From: a virus
Taxonomy: Duplodnaviria; Heunggongvirae; Uroviricota; Caudoviricetes
Length of the DNA: 27,569 bases
Reading direction: 5' to 3' (one strand)
IMG/VR virus record: IMGVR_UViG_2582581022_000016
Position 1 is the stretch's first letter, and every line of letters begins with the position of its first letter. Under the pieces are notes generated by a model. That model made no database searches. It was not told where the DNA came from and saw nothing but the letters and a program-made list of their open reading frames with translations. This document shows, piece by piece, positions 103 through 27,193 of this stretch. The position numbers and the translations under genes were made by a program.

Positions 103-1008
103 ATGCAGGGGCGTGTCCTGCTGGAGCCTGAGCCGGAACGTTATTCATCTTTCGCCAGTGGTGCCGTTCCGGCGGCATCACAACCGCTGGCGGATGATCC
201 TGCCGTTCGGGCCGTGTTCCGCAATGAGGCAGTTATTCGTCGTGCGGGTGGCGTGGAATGTCTTGAAAGCTGGTTACTTCGTGAAAAGGGCTGTCAGTGG
301 CCTCATTCCGACTGGCACAGCGAGAACATGACCACAATGCGACACGCTCCGGGCGCAATCCGTCTGTGCTGGCACTGCGATAACCAGCTGCGCGATCAGT
401 TCACGGAACGGCTGGAATCAATGGCAACGGATAACTGTGCCCGCTGGGTGTTGTCTGTTGTGCGTCGGGATCTCGGTTTTGATGACAGTCACGTTGTGAC
501 AATGCCGGAACTGTGCTGGTGGCTGATTCGTAATGACCTGGCGGATGCCTTACCGGAAAGTGCAGCCCGTAAGGCACTGAGATTACCAAAGCCTGTTGTG
601 CCGTCTGTCACCCGGGAAAGTGACCTTGTGCCTTCGGTTCCTGCCACCAGCATCATCCAGGATAAAGCGAAAAAGGTGCTGGCGCTGAAAGTGGATCCGG
701 AGTCGCCGGAGTCTTTTATGTTACGCCCAAAACGTCGCCGCTGGGTTAATGAAAAGTACACGCGCTGGGTTAAGACACAGCCGTGTGCATGTTGTGGAAA
801 GCCCGCTGATGATCCCCACCACCTGATAGGTCACGGTCAGGGTGGAATGGGAACAAAAGCGCATGACCTTTTTGTGTTGCCTTTGTGCAGAAAGCATCAC
901 GACGAGCTGCATGCGGATACCGTGGCATTTGAAGAGAAGTATGGCTCCCAGCTGGAGCTGATATTTCGTTTTATCGATCGTGCGCTGGCAATTGGCGTAT
1001 TGGCGTAA
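103..1008 (+). CDS. Phage DUF968-like protein with a C-terminal Cys/His-rich motif (CACCGKPADDPHHLIGHGQGG...PLCRKHHDELH)
   Basis: 301-aa ORF. The C-terminal motif resembles the conserved region of prophage DUF968 proteins as I recall them. Sits directly upstream of a Q-like gene, as ydfU does next to quuQ in the E. coli Qin prophage. Family assignment is from memory, not a search. Confidence 0.5.
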   Translation: MQGRVLLEPEPERYSSFASGAVPAASQPLADDPAVRAVFRNEAVIRRAGGVECLESWLLREKGCQWPHSDWHSENMTTMRHAPGAIRLCWHCDNQLRDQFTERLESMATDNCARWVLSVVRRDLGFDDSHVVTMPELCWWLIRNDLADALPESAARKALRLPKPVVPSVTRESDLVPSVPATSIIQDKAKKVLALKVDPESPESFMLRPKRRRWVNEKYTRWVKTQPCACCGKPADDPHHLIGHGQGGMGTKAHDLFVLPLCRKHHDELHADTVAFEEKYGSQLELIFRFIDRALAIGVLA

Positions 1009-1021
1009 GTGGAGAACGAGC

Positions 1022-1774
1022 ATGAACCTTGAAGCCTTACCAAAATATTACTCCCCAAAATCTCCAAAATTGAGCGATGACGCACCGGCGACAGGCTCAG
1101 GTGGTTTAACGATTACGGATGTGATGGCTGCGCAGGGGATGGTGCAGTCGAAAGCACCGCTTGGGTTTGCCTTATTCCTGGCAAAAGTTGGTGTTCAGGA
1201 TCCTCAGTTTGCGATTGAAGGTCTGCTCAATTACGCGATGGCACTGGATAACCCGACATTGAACAAATTGAGTGAAGAAACCCGGTTACAGATCATCCCT
1301 TACCTTGTGAATTTTGCCTTTGCTGATTATTCCAGGTCTGCGGCAAGTAAGGCTCGCTGTGAGCATTGTGCTGGTACTGGATTTCATAATGTATTGCGCG
1401 AAGTAGTGAAACACTCCAGAAGCGGTGAATCTGTTATCAAGGAGGAGTGGGTGAAGGAACTATGTCAGCATTGTCATGGTAAGGGAGAAGTCAGCACAGC
1501 GTGCAGAGGGTGTAAGGGGAAAGGTATTGTCCTGGATGAAAAAAGGACCCGGCTTCATGGCACGCCTGTTTATAAGATTTGTGGGCGTTGCAATGGAAAC
1601 CGGTTTAGCCGTTTACCAACCACACTGGCGCGGCATCATGTCCAGAAGCTGGTACCGGATCTGACGGATTATCAGTGGTACAAAGGATATGCAGATGTCA
1701 TTGATAAACTGGTTACAAAGTGCTGGCAGGAAGAAGAATATGCAGAGACACAATTGAGAAAAGTGACAAGATAA
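1022..1774 (+). CDS. Putative late-gene antiterminator (Q-like) with four DnaJ-type CxxCxGxG zinc-finger repeats
   Basis: ORF track starts at GTG 980; ATG 1022 with GGAG at 1011..1014 is the more likely start, giving 250 aa. Repeats CEHCAGTG, CQHCHGKG, CRGCKGKG, CGRCNGNR. Position immediately before a promoter/terminator pair and the lysis cassette fits a Q-type regulator. Confidence 0.5.
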   Translation: MNLEALPKYYSPKSPKLSDDAPATGSGGLTITDVMAAQGMVQSKAPLGFALFLAKVGVQDPQFAIEGLLNYAMALDNPTLNKLSEETRLQIIPYLVNFAFADYSRSAASKARCEHCAGTGFHNVLREVVKHSRSGESVIKEEWVKELCQHCHGKGEVSTACRGCKGKGIVLDEKRTRLHGTPVYKICGRCNGNRFSRLPTTLARHHVQKLVPDLTDYQWYKGYADVIDKLVTKCWQEEEYAETQLRKVTR

Positions 1775-3530: not shown

Positions 3531-3988
3531 AGATGAGTTATTGGGCGCTCATTTTAACGTTTATTGCTTGTATTGCTGGTGGTCTTGTCTGGTCAGCTAA
3601 TCATTACCACAATAAAGCCATTGAATACAAAAAACAGCGCGACGAAAACGCTATGGCATTAGATTCGGCTATGGCGACGATCTCTGATATGCAGAAGCGT
3701 CAACGTGACGTAGCAGAACTCGATGCCAGATATACAAAGGAGCTTGCTGATGCTAACGCGACTATCGAAAGTCTCCGTGCTGATGTTTCTGCTGGTCGTA
3801 AGCGCCTGCAAGTCGCCGCCACCTGTGCAAAGTCAACGACCGGAGCCAGCGGCATGGGCGATGGAGAAAGCCCAGGACTTACAGCAGATGCTGAACTCAA
3901 TTATTACCGTCTCCGAAGTGGAATCGACAGGATAACCGCGCAGGTTAACTACCTGCAGGAGTACATCAGGACTCAGTGCTTAAAATAA
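3527..3988 (+). CDS. Rz-like i-spanin (N-terminal TM helix plus coiled-coil periplasmic domain)
   Basis: 153 aa. N-terminal TM ALILTFIACIAGGLVW, then charged helical sequence. Start overlaps the endolysin stop (ATGA). Contains an embedded +1 frame lipoprotein ORF. Confidence 0.75.
   Translation: MKMSYWALILTFIACIAGGLVWSANHYHNKAIEYKKQRDENAMALDSAMATISDMQKRQRDVAELDARYTKELADANATIESLRADVSAGRKRLQVAATCAKSTTGASGMGDGESPGLTADAELNYYRLRSGIDRITAQVNYLQEYIRTQCLK
3750..3935 (+). CDS. Rz1-like o-spanin (proline-rich outer-membrane lipoprotein) embedded in the +1 frame of Rz
   Basis: ORF track gives 3723..3935; ATG 3750 follows AAGGAG (3739..3744). Signal peptide MLTRLSKVSVLMFLLVVSA, lipobox VSA-C, then KSPPPVQSQRPEP. 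Fully nested in the Rz gene as in lambda Rz/Rz1. Confidence 0.7.
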   Translation: MLTRLSKVSVLMFLLVVSACKSPPPVQSQRPEPAAWAMEKAQDLQQMLNSIITVSEVESTG

Positions 3989-4030
3989 TTTTAACTTCAC
4001 TGAAATTTAACAAGTGACTTTCAGGAAAAT

Positions 4031-4054
4031 GCCTCGCAGAAGCGGGGCTTTTTT
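4031..4054 (+). terminator. Intrinsic terminator after the lysis cassette (GCCTCGC-AGAA-GCGGGGC then TTTTTT)
   Basis: 7-bp stem with one G-U pair, tetraloop, 6-T tract; read directly. Confidence 0.55.
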
Positions 4055-4201
4055 ATGTCCTCAGTAAATGCGCTTCACACGCGCGACTTATGAACACAGA
4101 GCCTTTCAGGATGACCCTTGAGGATGCCGGTTTGGTTATCGGTGCCTTTCTGTGGGCCGGAATCCTGTGTGACAAGGTTCATCACTAAAAGGTAATTACC
4201 G

Positions 4202-4744
4202 ATGAATTATCCAACTATCGTTGACGGCATTGATTTCAAAGAACTGGTTTTTATTACCAACAATGACCCTGTCACCGATTCATTTATGGTGGCGAAAGCA
4301 TTTCGTAAGCGACATGACAACGTTGTGCGTGATGTAGAAAGAACTATCGCTGCTTGTCCTGAAGAGTTTGATACAAAACTCAATTTTGAGGTTTGCTATA
4401 AAAACAATGAGTTACAGAATGGTAAGCCACAAAAATTCTATCGGCTACGTAAGGATGGGTTGATGCTTTTGGTTATGTCCTACACCAAAAAAGAAGCAAT
4501 GCGTATCAAAATTGCTTACATCAACGCATTCAACTGGATGTACGCCATGCTTCAGGTTGGTAATCGTCAATTTGAAGAAGAGCGAAATGCCGTAATGCTG
4601 GAGTACATGAAAGAGAAGGATGTTGCCAGCATGTCAGGTCGCCTGCTAAATCGCTGGGGAAAAATTAAGAAGCCACAGCTGCTGGCTAGAATTGAACGCC
4701 TTGAACAGCACGGGCAAACCGTAATCCCCGGACTCACCAATTAA
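4202..4744 (+). CDS. Rha-family phage regulatory protein
   Basis: 180 aa. N-terminal VTDSFMVAKAFRKRHDNVVRDVER matches the conserved Rha N-terminal signature as I recall it. Confidence 0.7.
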   Translation: MNYPTIVDGIDFKELVFITNNDPVTDSFMVAKAFRKRHDNVVRDVERTIAACPEEFDTKLNFEVCYKNNELQNGKPQKFYRLRKDGLMLLVMSYTKKEAMRIKIAYINAFNWMYAMLQVGNRQFEEERNAVMLEYMKEKDVASMSGRLLNRWGKIKKPQLLARIERLEQHGQTVIPGLTN

Positions 4745-14694: not shown

Positions 14695-15050
14695 TGGCCC
14701 GTATCGGGGGAACCTGTTATTTCAAAATTGACGGTCAGCAGCTATCGCTGACCGGCGGCATTGAGGTGCCCATGAACAGGACGGTCAATGATGACATCAT
14801 CGGCCTGGACGGCTCAGTGGACCGCAAGGAAACTCACCGTGCGCCTTATGTCAAAGGGACCTTCAAGGTGCCGAAGAATTTTCCGGTGAACAAAATCACC
14901 TCGTCTGATGAGATGACAATCACTGCCGAGCTGGCGAACGGTCAGGTCTATGTACTGTCGTCTGCCTGGCTGCACGGCGAAGCGAACCATAATGCCGAAG
15001 AAGGCACGGTTGATCTTGAGTTCCACGGTGAAGAAGGGGATTACCAGTAA
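14694..15050 (+). CDS. Tail tube protein (Mu gpM-like)
   Basis: 118 aa; start overlaps the sheath stop (ATAATGG). Confidence 0.8.
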   Translation: MARIGGTCYFKIDGQQLSLTGGIEVPMNRTVNDDIIGLDGSVDRKETHRAPYVKGTFKVPKNFPVNKITSSDEMTITAELANGQVYVLSSAWLHGEANHNAEEGTVDLEFHGEEGDYQ

Positions 15051-15319
15051 TGAAAGAGCTTGAGTTAAAGAAACCGATTACCGCTCATGGCGAGACACTC
15101 TCCGTACTGGAGTTTGATGAGCCCACCGGGAAAGATGTCCGCGAGCTGGGATATCCCTACCAGATGAATCAGGATGAGTCCGTCAGACTTCTGGCGCATG
15201 TGGTATCGAAATACATCGTGCGGCTGGCGAAAGTGCCGCAAAGCTCTGTCGACCAGATGTCTCCGGCAGATCTGAATGCAGCGGCGTGGCTTGTGGCCGG
15301 TTTTTTCCTCCAGGCCTGA
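15050..15319 (+). CDS. Tail assembly chaperone, short (G-like) form
   Basis: 89 aa; overlapping start with the tube gene. Ends at TGA 15317..15319 just after a slippery heptamer. Confidence 0.7.
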   Translation: MKELELKKPITAHGETLSVLEFDEPTGKDVRELGYPYQMNQDESVRLLAHVVSKYIVRLAKVPQSSVDQMSPADLNAAAWLVAGFFLQA

Positions 15320-15468
15320 CGGCTGAATACCTCACTGATCGCTTCTTTGACTGCGCCAGTTACTGGCGCATTAATCCTTTCGAATTGCTGAATATGCCGA
15401 TCAGTGAAATTCCCTTACTGGTCAGTCAGGCAAACAGGATAGAGCAGGAGAAACGCACACATGGCTGA
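15050..15468 (+). CDS. Tail assembly chaperone, long (GT-like) form made by -1 programmed frameshift at 15301..15307
   Basis: The -1 frame ORF (15286..15468) is open across the zero-frame stop and ends just inside the tape-measure start (15461). Predicted fusion about 139 aa. Confidence 0.6.
15301..15307 (+). other. Slippery heptamer T TTT TTC for -1 ribosomal frameshifting
   Basis: Zero-frame codons GGT TTT TTC CTC CAG GCC TGA; after a -1 slip the reading is F F P P G L T A E Y, matching the downstream ORF. Confidence 0.6.
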
Positions 15469-17293
15469 ATTTGAGCTTAAGGCGTTGATCACCGGTGTCG
15501 ACAGGCTTTCTCCCGCGCTGTCGAAAATGCAAAAGAAAATCCGGGGATTTAAACGCCAGGCGGAAGAAGCGTCACAGGGTGGGCTGGCGCTTGGTGGCGG
15601 ACTGGCAGCGGGTCTGACGCTTTCCCTGAAATCTTATGCCGATCAGGAAAACGCCGCCACCGGGCTGAAAGTCGCCATGATGGATGCGAACGGCGAGGTT
15701 GGAAAGAGCTTTCAGGACATCAATAAACTGGCTATTGGCCTGGGTAACCAGCTACCTGGTACAACGGCTGATTTCCAGAACATGATGCAGATGCTGGTGC
15801 GTCAGGGGATCCCGGCAGAAAACATTCTGGGTGGTGTGGGTAAAGCGACAGCTTATCTTGCGGTACAACTGAAAAAAACACCGGAAGCGGCTGCTGAGTT
15901 TGCTGCAAAGATGCAGGATGCTACCGGAACGGCGTCAGAAGACATGATGGGGCTGTTCGACACTATCCAGAAGGCGTTTTATCTGGGCGTTGACGATACC
16001 AACATGTTGTCCTTCTTCACTAAAACCAGTTCTGTTCTGAAGATGGTGAACAAGGATGGTCTTCAGGCTGCGCAGAGCCTTGCCCCCATCAGCGTCATGA
16101 TGGATCAGATGGGGATGAACGGGGAGTCGGCAGGTAATGCCCTGCGAAAAGTTATCCAGTCCGGATTAAGCGTTAAGAAAATCAGGGACGTTAATAAAGT
16201 TATGGCCCGCCAGAAACTCGGGGTACAGCTCGATTTTACTGACGGCAAAGGAAGTTTTGGCGGTCTTGATAACATGTTCAGGCAACTGGCAAAGCTGCGA
16301 AAACTGACCGACGTTAAGCGAACAGGTGTACTTAAGGCAATATTTGGTGATGATGCCGAAACCCTTCAGGTGGTCAATGCACTAATCGATAAAGGAAAGG
16401 ATGGCTACGATCAGATCCAGCAGAAGATGAATAAACAGGCCAGCCTGAATAAACGTGTTCAGGCACAGCTTGGTACGCTGTCCAACCTGTGGGAGGCAAT
16501 GACAGGGACCGCAACTAACGGCCTTGCGGCTATTGGCGGCGCATTTTCTGGTGACGCTAAAAATATCACACAATGGCTGGGGGAGTTGGGGGAGAAATTC
16601 ACGAAGTTTGCGGATGAAAATCCCCGGGTTATTCGCGGCGTCGTCGGGCTTGCTGCCGGTCTTGCGATTCTGAAACTGGGATTGATGGGCGTGGGCAGTG
16701 CCATCAGTATTGTCAGCAGGATTATGTCGATGACGCCGATTGGCATGATTGCGACGGCGATTGCTCTGGCTGCGGGATTAATTATCACTAACTGGGATGT
16801 TGTCGGACCTTATTTTAAGAAGCTCTGGGAAACCATTGGTCCTTATTTTGAGGCTGGCTGGGAACTTCTGAAGAAAGTTTTTGCCTGGTCGCCGCTGGGA
16901 ATGGTGATCAATAACTGGGGACCGGTTGTTAAGTGGTTTCAGGATATGTGGGACAAGCTGAAGCCAATTATTGAGTGGTTTACCGACAGTTCCGGTGACA
17001 CGGTCGATGCCATTAACTCTGCGCAGTGGGGCGCGGGTGCTTATGATGCTTATGGGACGGGAATACCGGCGCGGGGATACACACCTTATCCGGCGGTGGA
17101 TCCGGCTCAGTCAAACAACGCCTCCGATGCCACAGGCTCGAATCCCTTCATGATTAACAAAGCTTCTGTGCCAAAAGTTGATGGTGAGATCAAGGTATCT
17201 TTTGTGAATTCGCCTCCGGGTATGCGGGTTATGGAAACGCGATCCAGCGGTTTTGATGTCAGCCATGATGTTGGCTATACGCGGTTCAGGTAG
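15461..17293 (+). CDS. Tail tape measure protein
   Basis: 610 aa. Ala/Gly-rich helical N-half, hydrophobic segment (VIRGVVGLAAGLAILKLGLMGVGSAISIV...), Trp-rich C-terminal part. Sits after the frameshifted chaperone. Confidence 0.85.
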   Translation: MAEFELKALITGVDRLSPALSKMQKKIRGFKRQAEEASQGGLALGGGLAAGLTLSLKSYADQENAATGLKVAMMDANGEVGKSFQDINKLAIGLGNQLPGTTADFQNMMQMLVRQGIPAENILGGVGKATAYLAVQLKKTPEAAAEFAAKMQDATGTASEDMMGLFDTIQKAFYLGVDDTNMLSFFTKTSSVLKMVNKDGLQAAQSLAPISVMMDQMGMNGESAGNALRKVIQSGLSVKKIRDVNKVMARQKLGVQLDFTDGKGSFGGLDNMFRQLAKLRKLTDVKRTGVLKAIFGDDAETLQVVNALIDKGKDGYDQIQQKMNKQASLNKRVQAQLGTLSNLWEAMTGTATNGLAAIGGAFSGDAKNITQWLGELGEKFTKFADENPRVIRGVVGLAAGLAILKLGLMGVGSAISIVSRIMSMTPIGMIATAIALAAGLIITNWDVVGPYFKKLWETIGPYFEAGWELLKKVFAWSPLGMVINNWGPVVKWFQDMWDKLKPIIEWFTDSSGDTVDAINSAQWGAGAYDAYGTGIPARGYTPYPAVDPAQSNNASDATGSNPFMINKASVPKVDGEIKVSFVNSPPGMRVMETRSSGFDVSHDVGYTRFR

Positions 17294-17356
17294 TGTACAA
17301 AATGATTAATGTGTTTTTGTCTGGCATAATTTGGGTTTTCAGCTTTAAGTAGTTAA

Positions 17357-17362
17357 TATAAT
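17357..17362 (+). promoter_or_regulatory. Perfect -10 hexamer TATAAT, 30 bp upstream of the insertion gene's likely start; candidate autonomous promoter
   Basis: Read directly; no convincing -35 identified, so this is only a candidate. Confidence 0.3.
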
Positions 17363-17392
17363 CATTCCTTACAAATGATTGAAGGGATGATT

Positions 17393-17887
17393 ATGCGTAT
17401 CTTTGTTTTTTTTATATCTGCACTTTTATCTTTTAACTTGGCTGCGGAAGAGTGTAAGTTCAGCTTTAATGAGTCAGAATTAATCTCTTCTATAGGTATT
17501 GCACCAGTTAAGCAAGAGATAATAAAGGATGAAGGAATAACTAAGCGGCAATATGAATTCAGAAGAGAATTATCTTCTGAAGAAATGCTTAGTGATGACG
17601 CTGATGAAAAATATGAGCCGCAGTTTTATATATCTGTTTATAATCCATCATGCCCACAAAAGGTTATTGTTTGGTTTTTCAAAGACAATAAAAACACAAT
17701 GGATTTAAGTAATGAGGTCCTTGCTGGTAGAGCGTTCAAGTATTTAACTGGTGTTAATGAAAGTATTTTTGAAAATAAAATGAAAAAGTTTTTAAAGGTA
17801 CAGTCATTTGAATCTTTTGATGAAAGGACAGATTCTAAATTTATAAAGAGTGGTGATATTTATTCCATTGATGTTCAACTCAGATAG
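17393..17887 (+). CDS. AT-rich cargo gene encoding a signal-peptide-bearing secreted/periplasmic protein of unknown function (about 164 aa)
   Basis: ORF track gives 17375..17887; ATG 17393 follows GAAGGGA (17381..17387). Predicted signal peptide MRIFVFFISALLSFNLA|AEE. Two Cys in the mature part. Base composition is visibly far more A/T-rich than flanking tail genes. No family recognised. Confidence 0.6.
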   Translation: MRIFVFFISALLSFNLAAEECKFSFNESELISSIGIAPVKQEIIKDEGITKRQYEFRRELSSEEMLSDDADEKYEPQFYISVYNPSCPQKVIVWFFKDNKNTMDLSNEVLAGRAFKYLTGVNESIFENKMKKFLKVQSFESFDERTDSKFIKSGDIYSIDVQLR

Positions 17888-17906
17888 TAATTAAAAATAT
17901 TAGGTT

Positions 17907-17963
17907 CCCGCCACATCTTCTGCGATGTAAATAACTGACAAAGCAGATTTGGCGGGTTTTTTT
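17907..17963 (+). terminator. Terminator-like element after the cargo gene (CCCGCCA ... TGGCGGG then TTTTTTT)
   Basis: GC arms at 17907..17913 and 17950..17956 with a long loop containing a nested ACATC/GATGT hairpin, then a 7-T tract at 17957..17963. Confidence 0.4.
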
Positions 17964-17978
17964 GTATCCGGAGTTTAT

Positions 17979-19307
17979 ATGACGTGGAAAGACAGGCTTC
18001 AGGATGCGTCATTTCGCGGCGTACCGTTTAAGGTTGAAGAAGAAAGTGCGGGAACCGGTCGCCGTGTGGAAACACACGAATATCCGAACCGCGACAAGCC
18101 CTATACCGAAGATCTGGGAAAAGTCACTTTCCGCCCGTCCATCACAGCTTATGTGGTGGGAGATGACTGCTTTGACCAGCGCGATCGCCTGATTGAAGCG
18201 CTGAATAAACCCGGTCCCGGCACGCTTGTCCACCCGACATATGGTGAGCTGAAAGTCTGTGTTGACGGGGAAGTTCGGGTCAGCACATCGAAAAGTGAAG
18301 GGCGTATTGTCCGCTTTGACCTGAAGTTTGTCGAAGCAGGAGAACTCTCTTACCCCACATCAGGTGCGGCGACGGCGCAAACGCTGATGTCATCCTGTTC
18401 TGCACTGGATGACTGCATCAGTGACAGCTTCAGCGGTTTCAGTATCGATGGTGTGGCGGATTTCGTGCAGAACGACGTCGTCGGTAATGCCAGCACAATG
18501 CTTGGGTATGTTTCTGATGCGATGAAAGTGGTGGATTCTGCCGTATCGGATGCCGCCAGGCTGTTGCAGGGGGATATCTCGGTACTTCTGCCGCCGCCAT
18601 CGTCAGGCAAAAATTTCGTTGAGCAGGTGCAGAAAATGTGGCGTACCGGGAAACGCCTTTATGGTAACGCCAGCGACCTGGTCACCATGATCAAAACGCT
18701 TTCCGGTGTCAGCCTCGGCAGCGATCTGCAACCGCGCGGCGTCTGGAAAACGGACAGTAAAACCACCGCCACGGCGACGCAGCAGCGTAACGTGGTTGCC
18801 AGCACCCTTCGTACGACCGCAATCAGCGAAGCGGCGTATGCCGTCACCCGATTGCCTGCGCCAACAATTTCTGCGGTGATGCAGAATGCCGCAGTGGGGC
18901 AGGCAACAACACCCGCGCAGAGCACTGGCTGGCCTTCCGTCACGCATCCGGCACTGAACAATGCACCGGCGGTGAAAAACACGGTTGACCTGCCGACGTG
19001 GGAAGAACTGACTGACATTCGCGACACACTGAATACGGCAATTGATAAGGAGTTGTCCCGTACAACCAGTGATGCGCTGTTTCTGGCGCTGCGCCGGGTG
19101 AAAGCAGATCTGAATGCGGATATCAACACGCGCCTTGAACAGTCTGCACGGATCATTCAGCGCACGCCGGATGAGGTTTTACCCGCGCTGGTGCTGGCGG
19201 CGACCTGGTTTGATAACGCGGCGCGTGACGCGGACATTATCCGGCGTAATGCCATTACACATCCCGGCTTTGTGCCGGTGATCCCTCTGAAGGTGCCAGT
19301 GCAATGA
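17979..19307 (+). CDS. DNA circulation protein (Mu gpN-like) of the baseplate/tail tip
   Basis: ORF track gives 17949; ATG 17979 follows GGAG (17971..17974). N-terminus MTWKDRLQDASFRGVPF...THEYPNRDKPYTEDLG matches the Mu N-like DNA-circulation N-terminal domain as I recall it. Confidence 0.75.
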   Translation: MTWKDRLQDASFRGVPFKVEEESAGTGRRVETHEYPNRDKPYTEDLGKVTFRPSITAYVVGDDCFDQRDRLIEALNKPGPGTLVHPTYGELKVCVDGEVRVSTSKSEGRIVRFDLKFVEAGELSYPTSGAATAQTLMSSCSALDDCISDSFSGFSIDGVADFVQNDVVGNASTMLGYVSDAMKVVDSAVSDAARLLQGDISVLLPPPSSGKNFVEQVQKMWRTGKRLYGNASDLVTMIKTLSGVSLGSDLQPRGVWKTDSKTTATATQQRNVVASTLRTTAISEAAYAVTRLPAPTISAVMQNAAVGQATTPAQSTGWPSVTHPALNNAPAVKNTVDLPTWEELTDIRDTLNTAIDKELSRTTSDALFLALRRVKADLNADINTRLEQSARIIQRTPDEVLPALVLAATWFDNAARDADIIRRNAITHPGFVPVIPLKVPVQ

Positions 19308-22979: not shown

Positions 22980-23960
22980 ATGCATCGTATAGACACGAAA
23001 ACCGCGCAGAAGGATAAGTTCGGCGCGGGTAAGAACGGTTTTACCCGTGGTAACCCCCAGACCGGCACGCCTGCCACCGATCTGGATGATGACTACTTTG
23101 ACATGTTGCAGGAAGAACTCTGCAGCGTGGTGGAGGCATCCGGTGCCAGTCTGGAGAAGGCGCGGCACGACCAGTTGCTTACCGCGCTTCGTGCTCTGCT
23201 GTTAAGCCGCAAGAATCCGTTTGGCGATATCAAATCGGATGGCACTGTGCAAACGGCTCTCGAAAACCTTGGTATTAAAAACGCATCAACAACACAGGTG
23301 GGTTTAGTCCGGTTAACGTCATCGCGGGTATCGGGTGCAGAGGATATTGCAGCCACAGCTAATGCTGTCGCGCAAAACTATACGGACATAAAATCTTTGC
23401 AAAACAAAACTCAGGATTCAACTACGACACAGAAAGGAATTGTTCAACTTACATCATCAAGGGTATCCGAATCTGAAACGCTTGCTGCAACAGCAAAAGC
23501 GGCAGCGATGAATTATGCGGATATACAGGCGTTGCAAGGCAAGACCAATGATGCGACCCCAACAAACAAGGGAATTATCCGCGTATCTGATTCCAGAACA
23601 TCGACGGAATCTGGTGTTGCTGCATCATCACTTGCTGCATCACAAAACTATTCAGATATGAAAGGGTTGTTTGGTCAATGCGGAATGAAATATAGAAATC
23701 TCGGTGTCGTATACACCAACAGCCAGTCTTTCGCCATATTTGTAAGCGTCAATGCGGTGCTGTCTGACGGTAGTTCATTTCTGAGCGCCAACGTTAATGT
23801 GGATGGTAATTCGGCTAATTTTCGCGGCTCTCAGACAACAAATCTTGCAGGGCAAAGAGCAACTATCGCATTCATGGTTCCTGCCGGTGCGACCTATATT
23901 GTGCAGCAGTTTTCAGGAACAGTGTCAGATGTTACCTGGGTAGAGGTGGATAAAAAATGA
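22980..23960 (+). CDS. Tail fibre protein with three tandem repeats of about 40 aa and a C-terminal receptor-binding region
   Basis: 326 aa. Conserved-looking N-terminus, repeats [40 protein letters not shown] / [40 protein letters not shown] / [37 protein letters not shown], then a divergent C-terminus. Confidence 0.85.
23286..23669 (+). repeat. Three tandem copies of a ~120-bp coding repeat inside the tail fibre gene (phage fibre repeat)
   Basis: Seen at protein level (residues about 103-230) and reflected in the DNA. Confidence 0.7.
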
Positions 23961-24325
23961 TAACAATGATGAAGTATTACAAAGATGAAAATAACGTCGT
24001 ATATGCCTACGATGCGTATGGCACACAGGATGCTTTTATCAAAGAAGGGCTTGTGCCAATCACCAGAAGTGAGGTTATGGCAATTATTAATCCCCCACCG
24101 ACTCATGAACAACTCATCCAGGCTGCTGAAAATGAGCGACAGCGATTACTGTCCGCCGCTGATGCAATTATGCTCGACTGGCGCACAGAGCTGATGCTGG
24201 GTGAAATCAGCGATGCCAACAGAGCTAAACTTTCGGCGTGGCTTTTATATAAGAATCAGGTTAAGGCTGTTGATGTAACAACCGACCCTGAGCATGTTAA
24301 CTGGCCTGTCATCCCGGAACTTTAG
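23957..24325 (+). CDS. Tail fibre assembly protein (Tfa/U-like chaperone)
   Basis: 122 aa; start overlaps the fibre stop (ATGA). Conserved-looking N-terminus (YAYDAYG...) and C-terminus resemble tail fibre assembly proteins as I recall them. Confidence 0.8.
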
Positions 24326-24516
24326 CTGGTTTGGCTATTGCCAGATCCAAAGGCCGGATTGGTGGGCGTAGACCGAAGTTTAGCGACGAGCAGTGGCAAC
24401 AGATGGGAGCGCTCATAGCGGCAGGGAAATCACGGCGTTATGTTGCACGTATCTATAACGTTGGGCTATCAACCCTATATAAACGATTTCCTGTTACTGG
24501 CATTCAAACGAAATAA
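24319..24516 (+). pseudogene. C-terminal remnant of a serine invertase (Gin/Pin/Cin/Hin family): helix-turn-helix DNA-binding domain only, catalytic domain missing
   Basis: Translation [56 protein letters not shown] matches the C-terminal end of Hin/Gin-type invertases as I recall them. Similarity begins around 24319, overlapping the tfa stop. The frame is open back to a TAA at 24298..24300, with no room for the ~130-aa catalytic domain. ORF track reports a TTG-initiated 61-aa ORF at 24331..24516. Confidence 0.7.
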
Positions 24517-24659: not shown

Positions 24660-24908
24660 TTAGTGAACAAACCACTCGTCAGCAGATTCCCAGGTATCTT
24701 TCAGAGTCTCCTGAACAAAAGTTTTTGCAGAATCCTTATCTGCGGTGCGTGTAACAGAAAGGCCATCGTTGCTGGTGGCTTTTACGATCACCTCTACATC
24801 GTCATAACGTTTACTGATGCGTCGGGTTAATTCTTCCTTTAACGCATCCACAGCACCGGTTGGCATTTTAGTCATTTTTTCTTTGGCTATGCAGATTTCA
24901 ATACGCAT
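24660..24908 (-). CDS. dinI: DinI-family protein (DNA-damage-inducible protein I homolog, prophage-encoded)
   Basis: 82 aa. MRIEICIAK...LKEELTRRI...[16 protein letters not shown] matches E. coli DinI closely as I recall it. GAGGGA Shine-Dalgarno 5 nt upstream of the ATG on the minus strand; two LexA boxes upstream. Confidence 0.85.
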
Positions 24909-24969: not shown

Positions 24970-26067
24970 TCAAGGGGTCTTATTTCTGCTCCTTTGGAGC
25001 TCTTCAAAACGATTATGTAAAGATTTCGGATACAGTTCGGTATATACCTGCCATAGCACGTTTAATGAACGATGCCCTGTAACCTGGGCCACTTCCTCAA
25101 TACTAAAACCAGCCTCAAATAAGCGACTTGCCCCTTCTCTACGCAAATCATGGTATCGCAGATCCTTAATACCTAATTTGCTTCTTACCCTCTGAAATCC
25201 CGCAGTAACAGAAGTGCTGTTATATGGAAAAATGAATTCCGATTTTTTGGGCTGTCGTTGGACGATATCCCAGGCTTCCCCAAGCAAGGCTACTTTCATG
25301 TGGTTGCCTTCCTTTTTGCGTGGATCTTTCCTGTCTCTTACGAGTATAGATTTTTGTTCCTGGTCGAGATCTTCCCATCGTAACCGGCATACTTCTCCGA
25401 TTCGCATACAGGACCACACAGAAAATTTGAGGATATCAACGAACGGAATTTTTGAGCATTTATGAGTAGATCGTTGTTGAAGGCCTTCAATGAGCATGTC
25501 CAGTTCATCAGATGCTGGTCTACGATTACGACGGTTTGATTTACCAATCAAACCAAGTTTAAGTAGATATGGACGAGCACTTTTCGCCGGGTTTGATGTG
25601 TAATTAATTCCGTATACAGGTTTGGCCGCATCCAGAACACTGCCAAGATAACTAACATCGTGGCTGACTGTTGCTGGACCTGCGCCAGCGTTGTTTCTTA
25701 GCCTGCAATGTTCAATTACGTCATTTTCTGTCAGTTCAGATAGTTTGATCGCGGAGATGTCACTATCCATAAGCAGTTCCAGCACATATCTTTTAGTACG
25801 GCCTGCTTTACCTCCGGCATTTGGGTCATTTAAATATTTGTGTAGTAAGTCACGGACTGTAAGTCCGTCAACTGCATTTGATGATGGAATGCCATATAGA
25901 TCTAATTCCATCACTTTCTGTGTGCCCCATGTTTTGGCATGAGCATGTTTAGGGAATGTTTTGCTTTCCCTGTAAGTGATAACACCTTTTTCTTTGATAA
26001 TCACATTACAGCGATAGCGTGGTGTGCCATCGGATTTTAGTCGTTTCTCTATGTTATAGTACGCCAT
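24970..26067 (-). CDS. int: Tyrosine recombinase / phage integrase, dusA-associated type
   Basis: 365 aa with the catalytic signature of tyrosine recombinases (R in CMRIGEVCRLR, H-x-x-R in YHDLRREG, GHRS, Tyr near the C-terminus). Lower GC than tail genes. Divergently adjacent to the dusA 5' end. Confidence 0.9.
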   Translation of the reverse strand: MAYYNIEKRLKSDGTPRYRCNVIIKEKGVITYRESKTFPKHAHAKTWGTQKVMELDLYGIPSSNAVDGLTVRDLLHKYLNDPNAGGKAGRTKRYVLELLMDSDISAIKLSELTENDVIEHCRLRNNAGAGPATVSHDVSYLGSVLDAAKPVYGINYTSNPAKSARPYLLKLGLIGKSNRRNRRPASDELDMLIEGLQQRSTHKCSKIPFVDILKFSVWSCMRIGEVCRLRWEDLDQEQKSILVRDRKDPRKKEGNHMKVALLGEAWDIVQRQPKKSEFIFPYNSTSVTAGFQRVRSKLGIKDLRYHDLRREGASRLFEAGFSIEEVAQVTGHRSLNVLWQVYTELYPKSLHNRFEELQRSRNKTP

Positions 26068-26086
26068 TACACGACCTCGTTATTTC

Positions 26087-26122
26087 GGGTTCCCATAAAA
26101 CGTGGGAACCTGTGCGGGAACC
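26087..26122. repeat. Three copies of GGGAACC (one inverted at 26088..26094, two direct at 26104..26110 and 26116..26122) in the int-dusA intergenic region; candidate operator or recombinase-binding sites
   Basis: Read directly; GGGTTCCCA-TAAAACG-TGGGAACC forms an 8-bp inverted repeat, followed by a third direct copy. Confidence 0.35.
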
Positions 26123-26155
26123 TAATGCGAGAAAAATAGCCTGAAATGTTCAAAA

Positions 26156-27193
26156 ATGCACGATAATCATGAAACACAAAAAATTAATCAAACCAGCGTG
26201 ATGCCTGAAAAAACTGGTGTTTACTGGAATTCTCGGTTTAGCATTGCTCCTATGCTTGACTGGACGGACAGACATTGCCGTTATTTCTTGCGTCTGCTTT
26301 CCCGCAATACGTTGCTGTATACCGAAATGGTGACCACAGGGGCGATTATTCACGGTAAAGGTGATTACCTGGCGTACAGTGAAGAAGAACATCCGGTAGC
26401 GTTGCAACTCGGGGGTAGCGATCCGGCGGCGCTGGCACAGTGTGCGAAGCTGGCAGAAGCGCGTGGATACGATGAGATCAACCTGAATGTCGGCTGCCCG
26501 TCTGACCGGGTGCAGAACGGCATGTTTGGTGCGTGTCTGATGGGTAATGCGCAGCTGGTTGCCGACTGCGTGAAAGCGATGCGCGATGTGGTGTCGATTC
26601 CGGTGACGGTGAAAACGCGTATTGGCATCGATGATCAGGACAGCTATGAATTTCTCTGCGATTTCATCAACACCGTTTCCGGCAAAGGTGAGTGTGAGAT
26701 GTTCATCATCCACGCACGTAAAGCCTGGCTTTCTGGGTTAAGTCCGAAAGAAAACCGTGAGATCCCGCCGCTCGATTATCCGCGTGTGTATCAACTGAAG
26801 CGTGACTTTCCGCATCTGACGATGTCGATTAACGGTGGTATCAAGTCGCTGGAAGAAGCTAAAGCGCATTTGCAACATATGGATGGCGTGATGGTCGGGC
26901 GCGAGGCGTATCAGAATCCGGGTATTCTGGCGGCGGTAGACCGAGAGATTTTTGGTTCCTCGGATACTGATGCTGATCCGGTGGCGGTAGTGCGCGCCAT
27001 GTATCCGTACATTGAGCGTGAACTCAGCCAGGGTACGTATCTCGGCCATATTACCCGGCATATGCTGGGCTTGTTCCAGGGTATTCCTGGCGCGCGGCAG
27101 TGGCGGCGTTATTTAAGTGAAAATGCCCATAAAGCGGGTGCAGACATTAATGTGCTGGAACACGCGCTCAAACTGGTGGCGGATAAGCGTTAA
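26156..27193 (+). CDS. dusA: tRNA-dihydrouridine synthase A (host gene, integration target of the prophage)
   Basis: 345 aa. Dus-family motifs ([28 protein letters not shown]) and overall sequence match E. coli DusA as I recall it. Confidence 0.9.

What the first reader, a model, noticed from the sequence alone, without database searches (positions are those of the whole stretch)
17294..17963. AT-rich single-gene cargo insertion encoding an uncharacterised secreted protein, inside the tail operon
A roughly 670-bp block between the tape-measure gene and the Mu N-like DNA-circulation gene is compositionally foreign: visibly A/T-rich against GC-rich, tightly overlapping tail genes. It has its own candidate promoter (perfect TATAAT at 17357..17362), a Shine-Dalgarno, one ORF (17393..17887) with a clear Sec-type signal peptide (MRIFVFFISALLSFNLA|AEE) and two cysteines in a mature domain of about 145 aa, and a GC-stem plus T7 terminator-like element. 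This is the classic architecture of a phage moron, a lysogen-expressed accessory gene. I recognise no known family. Exported prophage morons of this kind often act in superinfection exclusion, receptor masking, envelope defence or host fitness. It is the best candidate in this window for an undescribed function.
Basis: partly seen in the sequence, partly recalled or inferred. Interest (0 to 1): 0.8.

Follow-up and report, generated by a model that had tools for sequence, protein, structure and literature searches.

The report
Exported accessory gene in prophage tail-operon hotspot
An optional, AT-rich gene for a small exported protein of unknown function sits in a swap-in/swap-out slot between two tail genes of an E. 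coli prophage; it is a genuine but fairly ordinary phage "moron", most plausibly involved in blocking other phages at the cell envelope.

Summary
Window 17294-17963 is the lowest-GC 670-bp stretch of the whole 27.5-kb window (0.31 against 0.52). It contains one real gene, 17393-17887 (dN/dS 0.17-0.20). The product has a Sec-type signal peptide and two invariant cysteines.

The window is an SfV-like E. coli prophage with a Mu-type tail, integrated at dusA. The gene is optional: SfV, SfI, SfII and SfIV and about half of the related E. coli prophages have an empty junction between the tape-measure gene and the N gene. At least five unrelated, equally AT-rich single-gene cassettes occupy the same slot elsewhere. 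Four of those five also carry export or membrane-anchor signals. One matches a PHROG annotated "superinfection exclusion Sie-like".

The family is tiny (12 clusters among 1.84 billion representatives), limited to Enterobacterales, and always found at this junction. It has no Pfam, NCBIfam or PADLOC match and no convincing match to a solved structure, although the AlphaFold model is confident (pLDDT 88).

- The terminator hairpin belongs to the junction backbone, not to the cargo.
- The promoter is only a -10 hexamer.
- The signal peptide is probably cleaved at A18|E19.

The moron architecture is well supported. The function is inferred: periplasmic superinfection exclusion, about 0.35. This is a new member of a known kind, of moderate interest.

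The parts
980..1774 (+). Q-type late antiterminator gene. Context only: it explains how late transcription can read through hairpins inside the tail operon.
   Evidence: Pfam PF03589 Antiterm, E = 2e-53. Read-through of internal terminators is inferred from established lambdoid Q biology.
15461..17293 (+). Tail tape-measure gene, the left border of the slot. Its last ~300 nt are the most allele-differentiated part of the flank.
   Evidence: PF10145, E = 9.8e-27; RefSeq annotation. Identity of the last 300 nt to this window is 99.5 % in loci with this cassette, 96.5 % in empty loci and 89.7 % in loci with cassettes B or D. Further upstream all classes are 97-99 % identical.
17294..17392 (+). 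Upstream intergenic region with two weak promoter candidates and the ribosome-binding site: an extended -10 TGgCATAAT at 17322-17330, TATAAT at 17357-17362 with a poor -35, and the SD AAGGGA at 17382-17387.
   Evidence: Sequence. Best sigma-70 match is 8 of 12. The consensus scan finds no + strand promoter. Positions 17298-17316 resemble the start of the empty-site spacer.
17393..17446 (+). Signal-peptide coding part (residues 1-18, MRIFVFFISALLSFNLAA; predicted cleavage A18|E19).
   Evidence: The n/h/c-region pattern is conserved in 13 of 14 family members. SignalP was not available.
17447..17887 (+). Mature 146-aa periplasmic alpha+beta domain with conserved C21 and C87 (likely a disulfide), plus the stop codon.
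   Evidence: AlphaFold2 pLDDT 88.0, pTM 0.80. dN/dS 0.17-0.20. phrog_8976, unknown function, E = 2.8e-107. No Pfam, NCBIfam, PADLOC or PDB sequence match.
17907..17963 (+). Junction hairpin (stem 17907-17913 / 17950-17956) plus T7 (17957-17963). It is a backbone terminator-like element. Here its loop carries a 40-nt insert (17912-17951) in place of the TTCG tetraloop seen in other family members.
   Evidence: Fold -21.5 kcal/mol, z = -3.3. The compact homologue CCCGCTTCGGCGGG + T-run occurs in diverged relatives. A similar hairpin occurs in the empty site and behind cassettes C and E. It is annotated 'putative rho-independent terminator' in phage SfII.
17970..19307 (+). SD (GGAG, 17970-17973) and the Mu N / gp43-like DNA-circulation (baseplate hub) gene, the right border of the slot. 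The motif CGGAGTTTATATG is shared by empty sites and by + strand cassettes C and E, with B carrying a one-base variant (CGGAGTGTATATG).
   Evidence: PF07157 DNA_circ_N, E = 3.7e-34. Border comparison. The N protein N-terminus is nearly invariant across cassette types.

Best explanation
Window 17294-17963 is one allele of a cassette slot (hotspot) between the tape-measure gene and the Mu-N-like baseplate gene of SfV-like, Mu-tail-type temperate phages of Enterobacterales.

Shown here. The slot is either empty or holds one of at least six unrelated, AT-rich single genes. The cassette in this window encodes a protein with a Sec signal peptide, giving a roughly 146-aa soluble periplasmic alpha+beta protein. 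Two conserved cysteines probably form a DsbA-made disulfide. The gene is dispensable for making virions and has no detectable relative of known function.

Inferred. The protein is made at a low level in lysogens, either from a weak AT-rich promoter or by read-through. It is made strongly during late transcription, when Q-modified polymerase reads through the junction hairpin. In the periplasm it acts on the entry step of incoming phages, that is, superinfection exclusion. It would do this by binding a tail-tip component that crosses the periplasm (tape measure, spike or hub) or a periplasmic host factor needed for DNA injection. This protects the lysogen, or the already infected cell, without altering outer-membrane receptors.

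Alternative cassettes are exchanged by homologous recombination in the conserved flanking tail genes. They are probably maintained by diversifying selection.
For: Architecture (shown):
- Presence/absence: 85 of 5,426 complete E. coli genomes carry the block, while 1,097 carry the junction.
- The empty site is a 66-nt spacer. SfV, SfI and SfII are empty and SfIV has a 24-nt gap.
- Five other cassettes occupy the same slot, with GC 0.34-0.42. They occur in 178, 28, 72, 55 and 101 genomes.
- Among 80 IMG/VR prophages whose N protein is at least 99 % identical, 38 are empty, 16 carry this cassette, 18 carry B and 5 carry D.
- Silent divergence peaks at the junction, as expected for an old, maintained polymorphism.

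Exported protein:
- The signal peptide and the cysteine pair are conserved from E. coli to Yersinia.
- The model is confident.
- The gene is under purifying selection.

Towards an envelope or anti-phage role (inferred):
- Five of the six cassette types carry export signals: two Sec signal peptides, two N-terminal membrane anchors and one lipobox.
- Cassette D matches phrog_8545, 'superinfection exclusion Sie-like', E = 1.5e-49.
- The cargo evolves faster than the tail genes. It is 59-62 % identical where the tape measure is 77 %, N 71-74 % and the sheath 85 %.
- Precedents: the HK97 gp15 moron lies next to the tape-measure gene and blocks genome entry in a tail-dependent way (PMC3594210). T4 Spackle is a soluble periplasmic exclusion protein (PMC7677548). 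TP-J34 Ltp targets the tape-measure protein (Bebeacua 2013, cited in PMC3952083).
- A Q antiterminator is present in the window.
Against: - There is no experimental or homology evidence for any function. PADLOC gives no hit for this or any sister cassette. PHROG labels this family 'unknown'.
- Expression in lysogens is unproven, because no convincing promoter was found. The Yersinia relatives are packed 10-25 nt behind the tape-measure gene, which points to late co-transcription.
- There is no cassette-specific co-variation with the neighbouring proteins. The N-terminus of N is nearly invariant, and cassettes B and D share one tape-measure C-terminal allele.
- The PHROG label on cassette D is an annotation, not a tested function, and membrane-anchored OB-fold proteins elsewhere act by abortive infection (PMC10127798).
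Confidence: 0.4

Rival explanations
1. Lysogenic-conversion or host-fitness factor unrelated to phages. The periplasmic protein would help the bacterium in its niche, for example by protecting the envelope against host lysozyme, complement, bile or other stress, or by binding a small ligand, in the way lambda Bor and Lom benefit the host.
Against: The family occurs nowhere outside this one phage junction. Typical virulence morons have chromosomal or plasmid homologues. There is no similarity to known lysozyme inhibitors or serum-resistance proteins. The sister cassette D carries a Sie-like label.
Confidence: 0.25
2. Lytic-cycle accessory protein. It would be co-transcribed with the tail genes late in infection and exported, to act during or after lysis. 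Possible roles are stopping progeny from wasting themselves on debris or on already infected cells, or tuning cell-wall breakdown. It would not be a lysogen-expressed moron.
For: It has the same orientation as the operon and sits inside it. No convincing promoter of its own was found. In the Yersinia relatives it starts 10-25 nt after the tape-measure stop. It is always at the same position and diverges together with the tail module. A Q antiterminator would carry late transcription through the junction hairpin. T5 Llp is a precedent for protecting progeny by inactivating the receptor (PMC9586334).
Against: Many fully functional relatives lack it. The slot also takes a cassette on the opposite strand (D), which cannot be part of the late transcript. 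The strong AT bias and cassette turnover are typical of prophage-expressed morons.
Confidence: 0.2
3. A tail structural or assembly component, such as a minor baseplate protein or chaperone, that is simply poorly conserved.
For: Its position is between the tape-measure and baseplate-hub genes, on the same strand.
Against: Its cleavable Sec signal peptide would take it out of the cytoplasm, where tails assemble. It is absent from SfV, SfI, SfII and SfIV and from about half of near-identical prophages. Unrelated proteins replace it in the same slot.
Confidence: 0.02
4. No functional gene: a chance ORF or decaying remnant in AT-rich filler DNA.
For: There is no known domain. AT-rich DNA gives chance TATAAT hexamers and hairpins.
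Against: dN/dS is 0.17-0.20. Length, signal peptide and cysteines are conserved from 100 % down to 36 % identity across six genera. The fold prediction is confident.
Confidence: 0.01

Closest known systems
HK97 gp15 moron (superinfection exclusion; Juhala 2000, Cumby 2012; reviewed in PMC3594210)
   Same: It is a single extra gene inside the tail operon, directly beside the tape-measure gene. It differs in GC from its neighbours, is absent from related phages and makes an envelope-located product. For gp15, exclusion acts at genome entry and depends on the tail region of the incoming phage.
   Different: gp15 is a small inner-membrane protein related to host YebO, in a siphovirus, lying upstream of the tape-measure gene. 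This protein is a soluble periplasmic 146-aa alpha+beta domain with no host homologue, lying downstream of the tape-measure gene in a contractile-tail phage. Its expression and function are untested.
T4 Spackle (Sp), a periplasmic inhibitor of the gp5 tail lysozyme (PMC7677548)
   Same: It is a small Sec-exported soluble periplasmic phage protein, and the only well-understood soluble periplasmic exclusion factor. It acts on a tail-tip component crossing the periplasm.
   Different: There is no sequence or fold similarity; no PDB match was found at all. Spackle is an early gene of a virulent phage. No lysozyme domain was detected in this phage's tape-measure or N proteins.
Lipoprotein exclusion factors: TP-J34 Ltp (targets the tape-measure protein), T5 Llp and lambdoid Cor (block FhuA) (PMC3952083, PMC9586334, PMC3594210)
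   Same: They are envelope-exposed, phage-encoded proteins that block entry. Llp and Cor genes lie next to tail or receptor-binding genes. Ltp's target is the tape measure.
   Different: They are lipoproteins. This protein has no lipobox, since its Cys is at +3 after an SPase-I-type site. There is no homology. A lipoprotein cassette (E) does occur in the same slot, but it is unrelated to this one.
Prophage and satellite hotspots of anti-phage systems (P2/P4 hotspots; Rousset 2022, cited in PMC10884400)
   Same: A fixed position between conserved phage genes holds many alternative, unrelated, low-GC cargo genes. They are exchanged by recombination in the flanks.
   Different: P2/P4 hotspots carry mainly cytoplasmic, often multi-gene defence systems recognised by PADLOC or DefenseFinder. 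This slot carries single small genes, five of six with export or anchor signals, and none is recognised by PADLOC.
phrog_8545 'superinfection exclusion Sie-like' / PF12869 membrane-anchored OB-fold proteins (alternative occupant D of the same slot)
   Same: It occupies exactly the same slot in sister prophages, is similar in size and is targeted to the envelope.
   Different: It is unrelated in sequence, encoded on the opposite strand and membrane-anchored rather than soluble. Its Sie label is an annotation only.

Membership tests
Phage moron (Juhala/Hendrix definition, as summarised in PMC3594210) | An extra gene between two genes that are adjacent in related phages | tested here: met
   The empty junction is a 66-nt spacer in about half of related E. 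coli prophages and in SfV, SfI and SfII.
Phage moron (Juhala/Hendrix definition, as summarised in PMC3594210) | Base composition differs from the surrounding genes | tested here: met
   GC is 0.31 against 0.51-0.58. GC3 is 0.25 against 0.56-0.65. This is the lowest-GC 670-bp window of the whole sequence.
Phage moron (Juhala/Hendrix definition, as summarised in PMC3594210) | Its own promoter | tested here: inconclusive
   There is a perfect TATAAT (17357-17362) with no -35, or TGgCATAAT (17322-17330). The best match is 8 of 12. The scan finds none on the + strand. The region is not conserved in the family and there is no space for a promoter in the Yersinia relatives.
Phage moron (Juhala/Hendrix definition, as summarised in PMC3594210) | Its own terminator | tested here: inconclusive
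   A hairpin plus T7 is present. However, a homologous hairpin is part of the empty junction and of other cassettes, so it belongs to the backbone.
Phage moron (Juhala/Hendrix definition, as summarised in PMC3594210) | Expressed from the repressed prophage | not testable with these tools
   This needs RNA-seq, 5' RACE or a reporter in a lysogen, for example strains M8 or ECOR29, which carry an identical block.
Phage moron (Juhala/Hendrix definition, as summarised in PMC3594210) | Spread by horizontal transfer among otherwise unrelated phage genomes | tested here: not met
   All 48 IMG/VR loci and the Kosakonia and metagenome loci have the gene at the same tape-measure/N junction of the same tail type. 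Exchange is seen only among relatives.
Superinfection-exclusion proteins (functional class) | Located in the cell envelope | tested here: met
   This rests on sequence only: a conserved Sec-type signal peptide and a conserved cysteine pair. There is no experimental localisation.
Superinfection-exclusion proteins (functional class) | Expression blocks infection at or after adsorption | not testable with these tools
   This needs plating-efficiency and injection assays.
Superinfection-exclusion proteins (functional class) | Homology to a characterised exclusion protein (Sp, Imm, SieA, gp15, Cor, Llp, Ltp) | tested here: not met
   PHROG gives only phrog_8976, 'unknown function'. There are no Pfam, NCBIfam or PADLOC hits and no PDB sequence or fold match.
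Known anti-phage defence systems (PADLOC-DB v2) | Match to a defence-system protein model | tested here: not met
   There were no hits at E <= 10 for this protein, and none at E <= 0.1 for cassettes B-E; F was not scanned.
Tail structural or assembly proteins of Mu-type tails | Present in all functional relatives, and cytoplasmic | tested here: not met
   It is absent from SfV, SfI, SfII and SfIV, and it carries an export signal. That these four phages are viable and plaque-forming or inducible rests on my own knowledge of the literature, not on a tool result.

The most novel reading that the evidence does not exclude
The junction between the tape-measure gene and the N gene of Mu-tail-type temperate phages is a dedicated hotspot for envelope-acting anti-phage cassettes. 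This family (phrog_8976) would be the founding member of a new class of soluble periplasmic exclusion proteins. It would intercept the tail tip (tape measure or hub) of incoming contractile-tail phages during periplasmic transit. That mechanism is so far known only from T4 Spackle, and not from any temperate phage of Enterobacterales.
Probability: 0.25. Interest if true: 0.6.

Novelty: new member of a known kind. Interest (0 to 1): 0.35.

Why it matters
If the inference is right, this small protein and its five slot-mates would be a compact set of single-gene, envelope-level phage-exclusion factors. They are carried by about 10 % of complete E. coli genomes (519 cassette matches in 5,426 genomes, summed over the six types and not corrected for genomes that carry two). 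Current defence-finding tools miss them. That matters for predicting phage host range and the success of phage therapy in E. coli, Salmonella, Shigella and Yersinia.

The slot would also be a convenient natural place to look for more such genes. Even if the function turns out differently, the slot is a clean example of cassette exchange inside an essential operon. It has a conserved hairpin at the border and a peak of silent divergence in the flanks.

As it stands, it is a well-documented but functionally uncharacterised moron.

Tried and rejected
- Known-family searches on the protein found only phrog_8976 (unknown function). Searched: Pfam, NCBIfam, PADLOC, PHROGs, and PDB by sequence, both single sequence and profile.
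- The profile search of 1.84 billion representatives added only fragments and four distant full-length relatives, all unnamed.
- The AlphaFold-database library was not available.
- Remote homology between this cassette and cassettes B and F was rejected (BLASTP for B, hhalign for B and F; probabilities below 2 %).
- Rfam found no RNA family in 17200-18100.
- Co-evolution with neighbouring proteins was rejected. The N-terminus of N is nearly invariant across cassette types, and cassettes B and D share one tape-measure C-terminal allele. The flank differentiation is therefore linkage, not cargo-specific adaptation.
- Literature searches for the accession, or for a described hotspot at this junction, found nothing.
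- One dN/dS calculation, for the N gene, was out of frame and is discarded.
Full report
**1. The observation**

Sliding windows inside 17300-18049 have GC 0.29-0.35, against 0.50-0.55 on either side. The lowest-GC 670-bp window of the entire 27,569-bp sequence starts at 17294 (0.313; overall mean 0.524; nothing else falls below 0.407). The bias is strongest at third codon positions: GC3 is 0.25, against 0.56 in the tape-measure gene and 0.60 in N.

- The ORF 17393-17887 encodes 164 aa.
- AAGGGA lies 5 nt upstream of the ATG, and TATAAT lies at 17357-17362.
- A 7-bp GC stem (17907-17913 / 17950-17956) is followed by seven T. It folds at -21.5 kcal/mol, z = -3.3.
- The ORF is a real gene. Against 94-95 % identical alleles, dN/dS is 0.17-0.20. 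Length, N-terminal signal and cysteines are kept down to 28 % identity.

**2. Where it sits**

The window is an E. coli prophage of the SfV type. It has lambdoid early and lysis genes and a Q-type antiterminator (980-1774, PF03589). It has an HK97-type head and a Mu-type contractile tail. Its integrase lies next to dusA.

The left neighbour is the tape-measure gene (15461-17293, PF10145). The right neighbour is the Mu N / gp43-like DNA-circulation gene (17979-19307, PF07157). RefSeq calls the ORF WP_001219112.1, 'hypothetical protein'. The one phage record that has it, Escherichia phage SKA5, does the same.

**3. It is an optional cassette in a hotspot**

The 670-bp block occurs in 85 of 5,426 complete E. 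coli genomes, always on the chromosome. A 1.86-kb query spanning the junction hits 1,097 genomes.

In an evenly spaced sample of those hits, about half have a 622-bp shorter interval. The tape-measure and N genes are then separated by a 66-nt spacer. Phages SfV, SfI and SfII have this empty form, and SfIV has only a 24-nt gap. The gene is therefore not needed to build the virion. That these are viable phages is from my own knowledge.

Other genomes carry a different single gene in the same place.

| Cassette | Product | Strand | Key features | E. coli genomes |
|---|---|---|---|---|
| A (this window) | 164 aa | + | Sec-type signal peptide | 85 |
| B | 176 aa | + | N-terminal membrane anchor | 178 |
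| C | 125 aa | + | bacterial PH domain (PF08000) | 28 |
| D | 148 aa | opposite strand | membrane-anchored OB-fold protein (PF12869) | 72 |
| E | 225 aa | + | lipoprotein with an LLGGC lipobox | 55 |
| F | 162 aa | + | Sec-type signal peptide | 101 |

(Cassette descriptions. Genome counts.)

- All six are AT-rich (GC 0.31-0.42).
- This cassette is unrelated to B and F. The other pairs were not compared directly, but all six fall in different PHROG families.
- Among 80 IMG/VR prophages whose N protein is at least 99 % identical to this one, 38 are empty, 16 have this cassette, 18 have B and 5 have D. Cassette turnover is therefore much faster than divergence of the flanks.
- Nucleotide identity to this window dips right at the junction. 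Over the last 300 nt of the tape-measure gene it is 99.5 % in loci with this cassette, 96.5 % in empty loci and 89.7 % in B and D loci. It returns to 97-99 % a few hundred bases away. That is the pattern expected for an old polymorphism exchanged by recombination in the flanks.
- The dip is not cargo-specific co-evolution. The N-terminus of the N protein is nearly invariant, and B and D share the same tape-measure end.

**4. The family**

A search of 5.8 billion proteins gave 16 hits. A profile search of 1.84 billion cluster representatives gave 12 clusters. Members come from E. coli, Shigella, Salmonella, Atlantibacter, Kosakonia and Yersinia, and all are unnamed.

- In every locus examined the gene lies between the tape-measure gene and N of the same tail type. 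This covers 48 IMG/VR contigs plus the Kosakonia and metagenome contigs, and includes relatives at 36-38 % identity.
- The gene diverges faster than the tail proteins. It is 59-62 % identical where the tape measure is about 77 %, N 71-74 % and the sheath about 85 %.
- It stays AT-rich in all lineages: GC 0.33-0.41 against 0.46-0.59 in the flanks.

So this is not a recent import from an unrelated source. It is a long-standing, facultative resident of this slot.

**5. The protein**

The N-terminus has a basic start, a strongly hydrophobic core and a small-residue cleavage region in 13 of 14 aligned members. The alignment puts cleavage after A18 (LAA|EEC), not after A17. C87 is invariant, and C21 is present wherever the signal peptide is. 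Together with export, this suggests a periplasmic disulfide (inference).

AlphaFold2 with the 13-sequence alignment gives a confident alpha+beta model, with pLDDT 88.0 and pTM 0.80. It has three beta-hairpin-like units and four longer helices.

- There is no Pfam, NCBIfam, PADLOC or PDB sequence match.
- PHROGs places it in phrog_8976, 'unknown function'.
- Foldseek against PDB finds nothing at E <= 1e-3.
- BFVD gives a single uninformative viral match, TM 0.63 and 13 % identity.
- The AlphaFold-database library was unavailable.

**6. Regulatory elements**

The hairpin plus T-run is not the cargo's own terminator.

- The empty site has TCCCACTCCGGTGGGA + T6 at the same distance from the N start.
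- Cassettes C and E are followed by near-identical hairpins.
- Diverged members of this family have a compact CCCGCTTCGGCGGG + T6-7.
- The SfII record annotates the element as a putative rho-independent terminator.
- In the E. coli form of this cassette, a 40-nt insert (17912-17951) replaces the tetraloop.

The promoter is weak evidence. TATAAT has GGTTTT where a -35 should be. An alternative, TGgCATAAT (17322-17330), scores 8 of 12. The consensus scan finds no + strand site. Upstream regions are not conserved across the family. In the Yersinia relatives the gene starts 10-25 nt after the tape-measure stop.

Late transcription from the Q-dependent promoter would be expected to read through the junction hairpin. 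This is established lambdoid biology, and Q is present in the window. The gene is therefore almost certainly expressed late. Whether it is also expressed in lysogens is open.

**7. What it most likely does**

Shown: it is an optional cassette in a recombination hotspot, it encodes an exported soluble protein, and it is not structural.

Inferred: it acts in the envelope, most likely against incoming phages. The reasons are as follows.

- Five of the six cassette types in the slot are targeted to the envelope.
- One of them (D) falls in a PHROG annotated 'superinfection exclusion Sie-like', E = 1.5e-49.
- The cargo evolves faster than its neighbours.
- Cassette diversity with deep flank divergence fits diversifying selection.
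- There are direct precedents. The HK97 gp15 moron beside the tape-measure gene blocks genome entry (PMC3594210). T4 Spackle is a soluble periplasmic protein that blocks the tail-tip lysozyme (PMC7677548). TP-J34 Ltp targets the tape-measure protein (cited in PMC3952083).

I put this at about 0.35-0.4. The rivals are:

- a host-fitness factor unrelated to phages (0.25);
- a late-expressed lytic-cycle accessory (0.2), which the tight packing in Yersinia relatives and the lack of a clear promoter favour;
- a structural role or a non-gene, both effectively excluded.

**8. Comparison with known systems, and verdict**

It works like, and is organised like, a classical tail-operon moron. It meets the presence/absence and composition criteria. 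The promoter and terminator criteria are inconclusive. It fails the 'spread among unrelated phages' criterion. It is not a member of any characterised exclusion or defence family.

The slot resembles the P2/P4 defence hotspots in logic. However, it carries single small envelope proteins that PADLOC does not recognise. I found no paper describing this protein or this slot.

Novelty: a new member of a known kind. Interest is moderate (0.35). A specialist would not be surprised by a moron in a tail operon. But the envelope-biased cassette slot, and a confident fold with no known relative, make a cheap and well-defined experimental target.

Noticed in passing
window 17912-17951: In all E. coli/Salmonella-type copies of this cassette, a 40-nt insert replaces the TTCG tetraloop of the junction hairpin (CCCGC-TTCG-GCGGG in diverged relatives). 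The insert can form its own small stem (TCTGC/GCAGA). The T-run after it varies between T6 and T7 among copies. The effect on termination is unknown.
   Followed up: partly
window 17294-17978 and loci L002-L006, L013: The slot between the tape-measure gene and N holds at least six unrelated single-gene cassettes. Five have export or anchor signals. The opposite-strand cassette D (PF12869 OB-fold, phrog_8545 'Sie-like') has its hairpin on the tape-measure side instead. Together the six cassette types match 519 times in 5,426 complete E. coli genomes (summed over types, not corrected for genomes that carry two).
   Followed up: partly
window 16994-17293 and 17979-18278: Nucleotide divergence between prophages with different cassettes peaks in the last 300 nt of the tape-measure gene (down to 89.7 % identity) and the first 300 nt of N. 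It returns to 97-99 % further away. In N the differences are almost all silent.
   Followed up: yes
window 3938-4744: This is the second-lowest-GC region of the window (0.41). ORF 4202-4744 is a Rha/ORF11CD3-type regulator (PF09669 + PF10549) lying between the lysis genes and the HNH/terminase genes. Strain M8's prophage, which matches this window almost exactly across the tape-measure/N junction (99.9 % over 1.86 kb), has an Rz1-like LysC and a GrlR-family regulator there instead, so this looks like another variable slot.
   Followed up: partly
window 15286-15468: A 60-codon ORF overlaps the end of the tail-assembly-chaperone gene (15050-15319, PF10109) and runs up to the tape-measure start. 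It probably represents the frameshift-extended chaperone (P2 E/E' type).
   Followed up: no
window 24970-27193: The prophage end consists of a tyrosine integrase (24970-26067, minus strand) directly abutting dusA (26156-27193), with a DinI-like gene at 24660-24908. Strain M8 carries a related prophage at dusA.
   Followed up: partly
window 22980-24516, compared with L001 23686-26436: The tail-fibre module in this window (326-aa fibre plus a 122-aa assembly protein) differs from that of strain M8. M8 has a shorter gp53-like fibre, two opposed fibre-assembly genes and a DNA invertase. This window appears to lack the invertible segment.
   Followed up: no
window 17558-17581: A 9-bp inverted repeat inside the coding sequence was flagged as terminator-like on the minus strand. 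It is most likely chance in AT-rich DNA.
   Followed up: no
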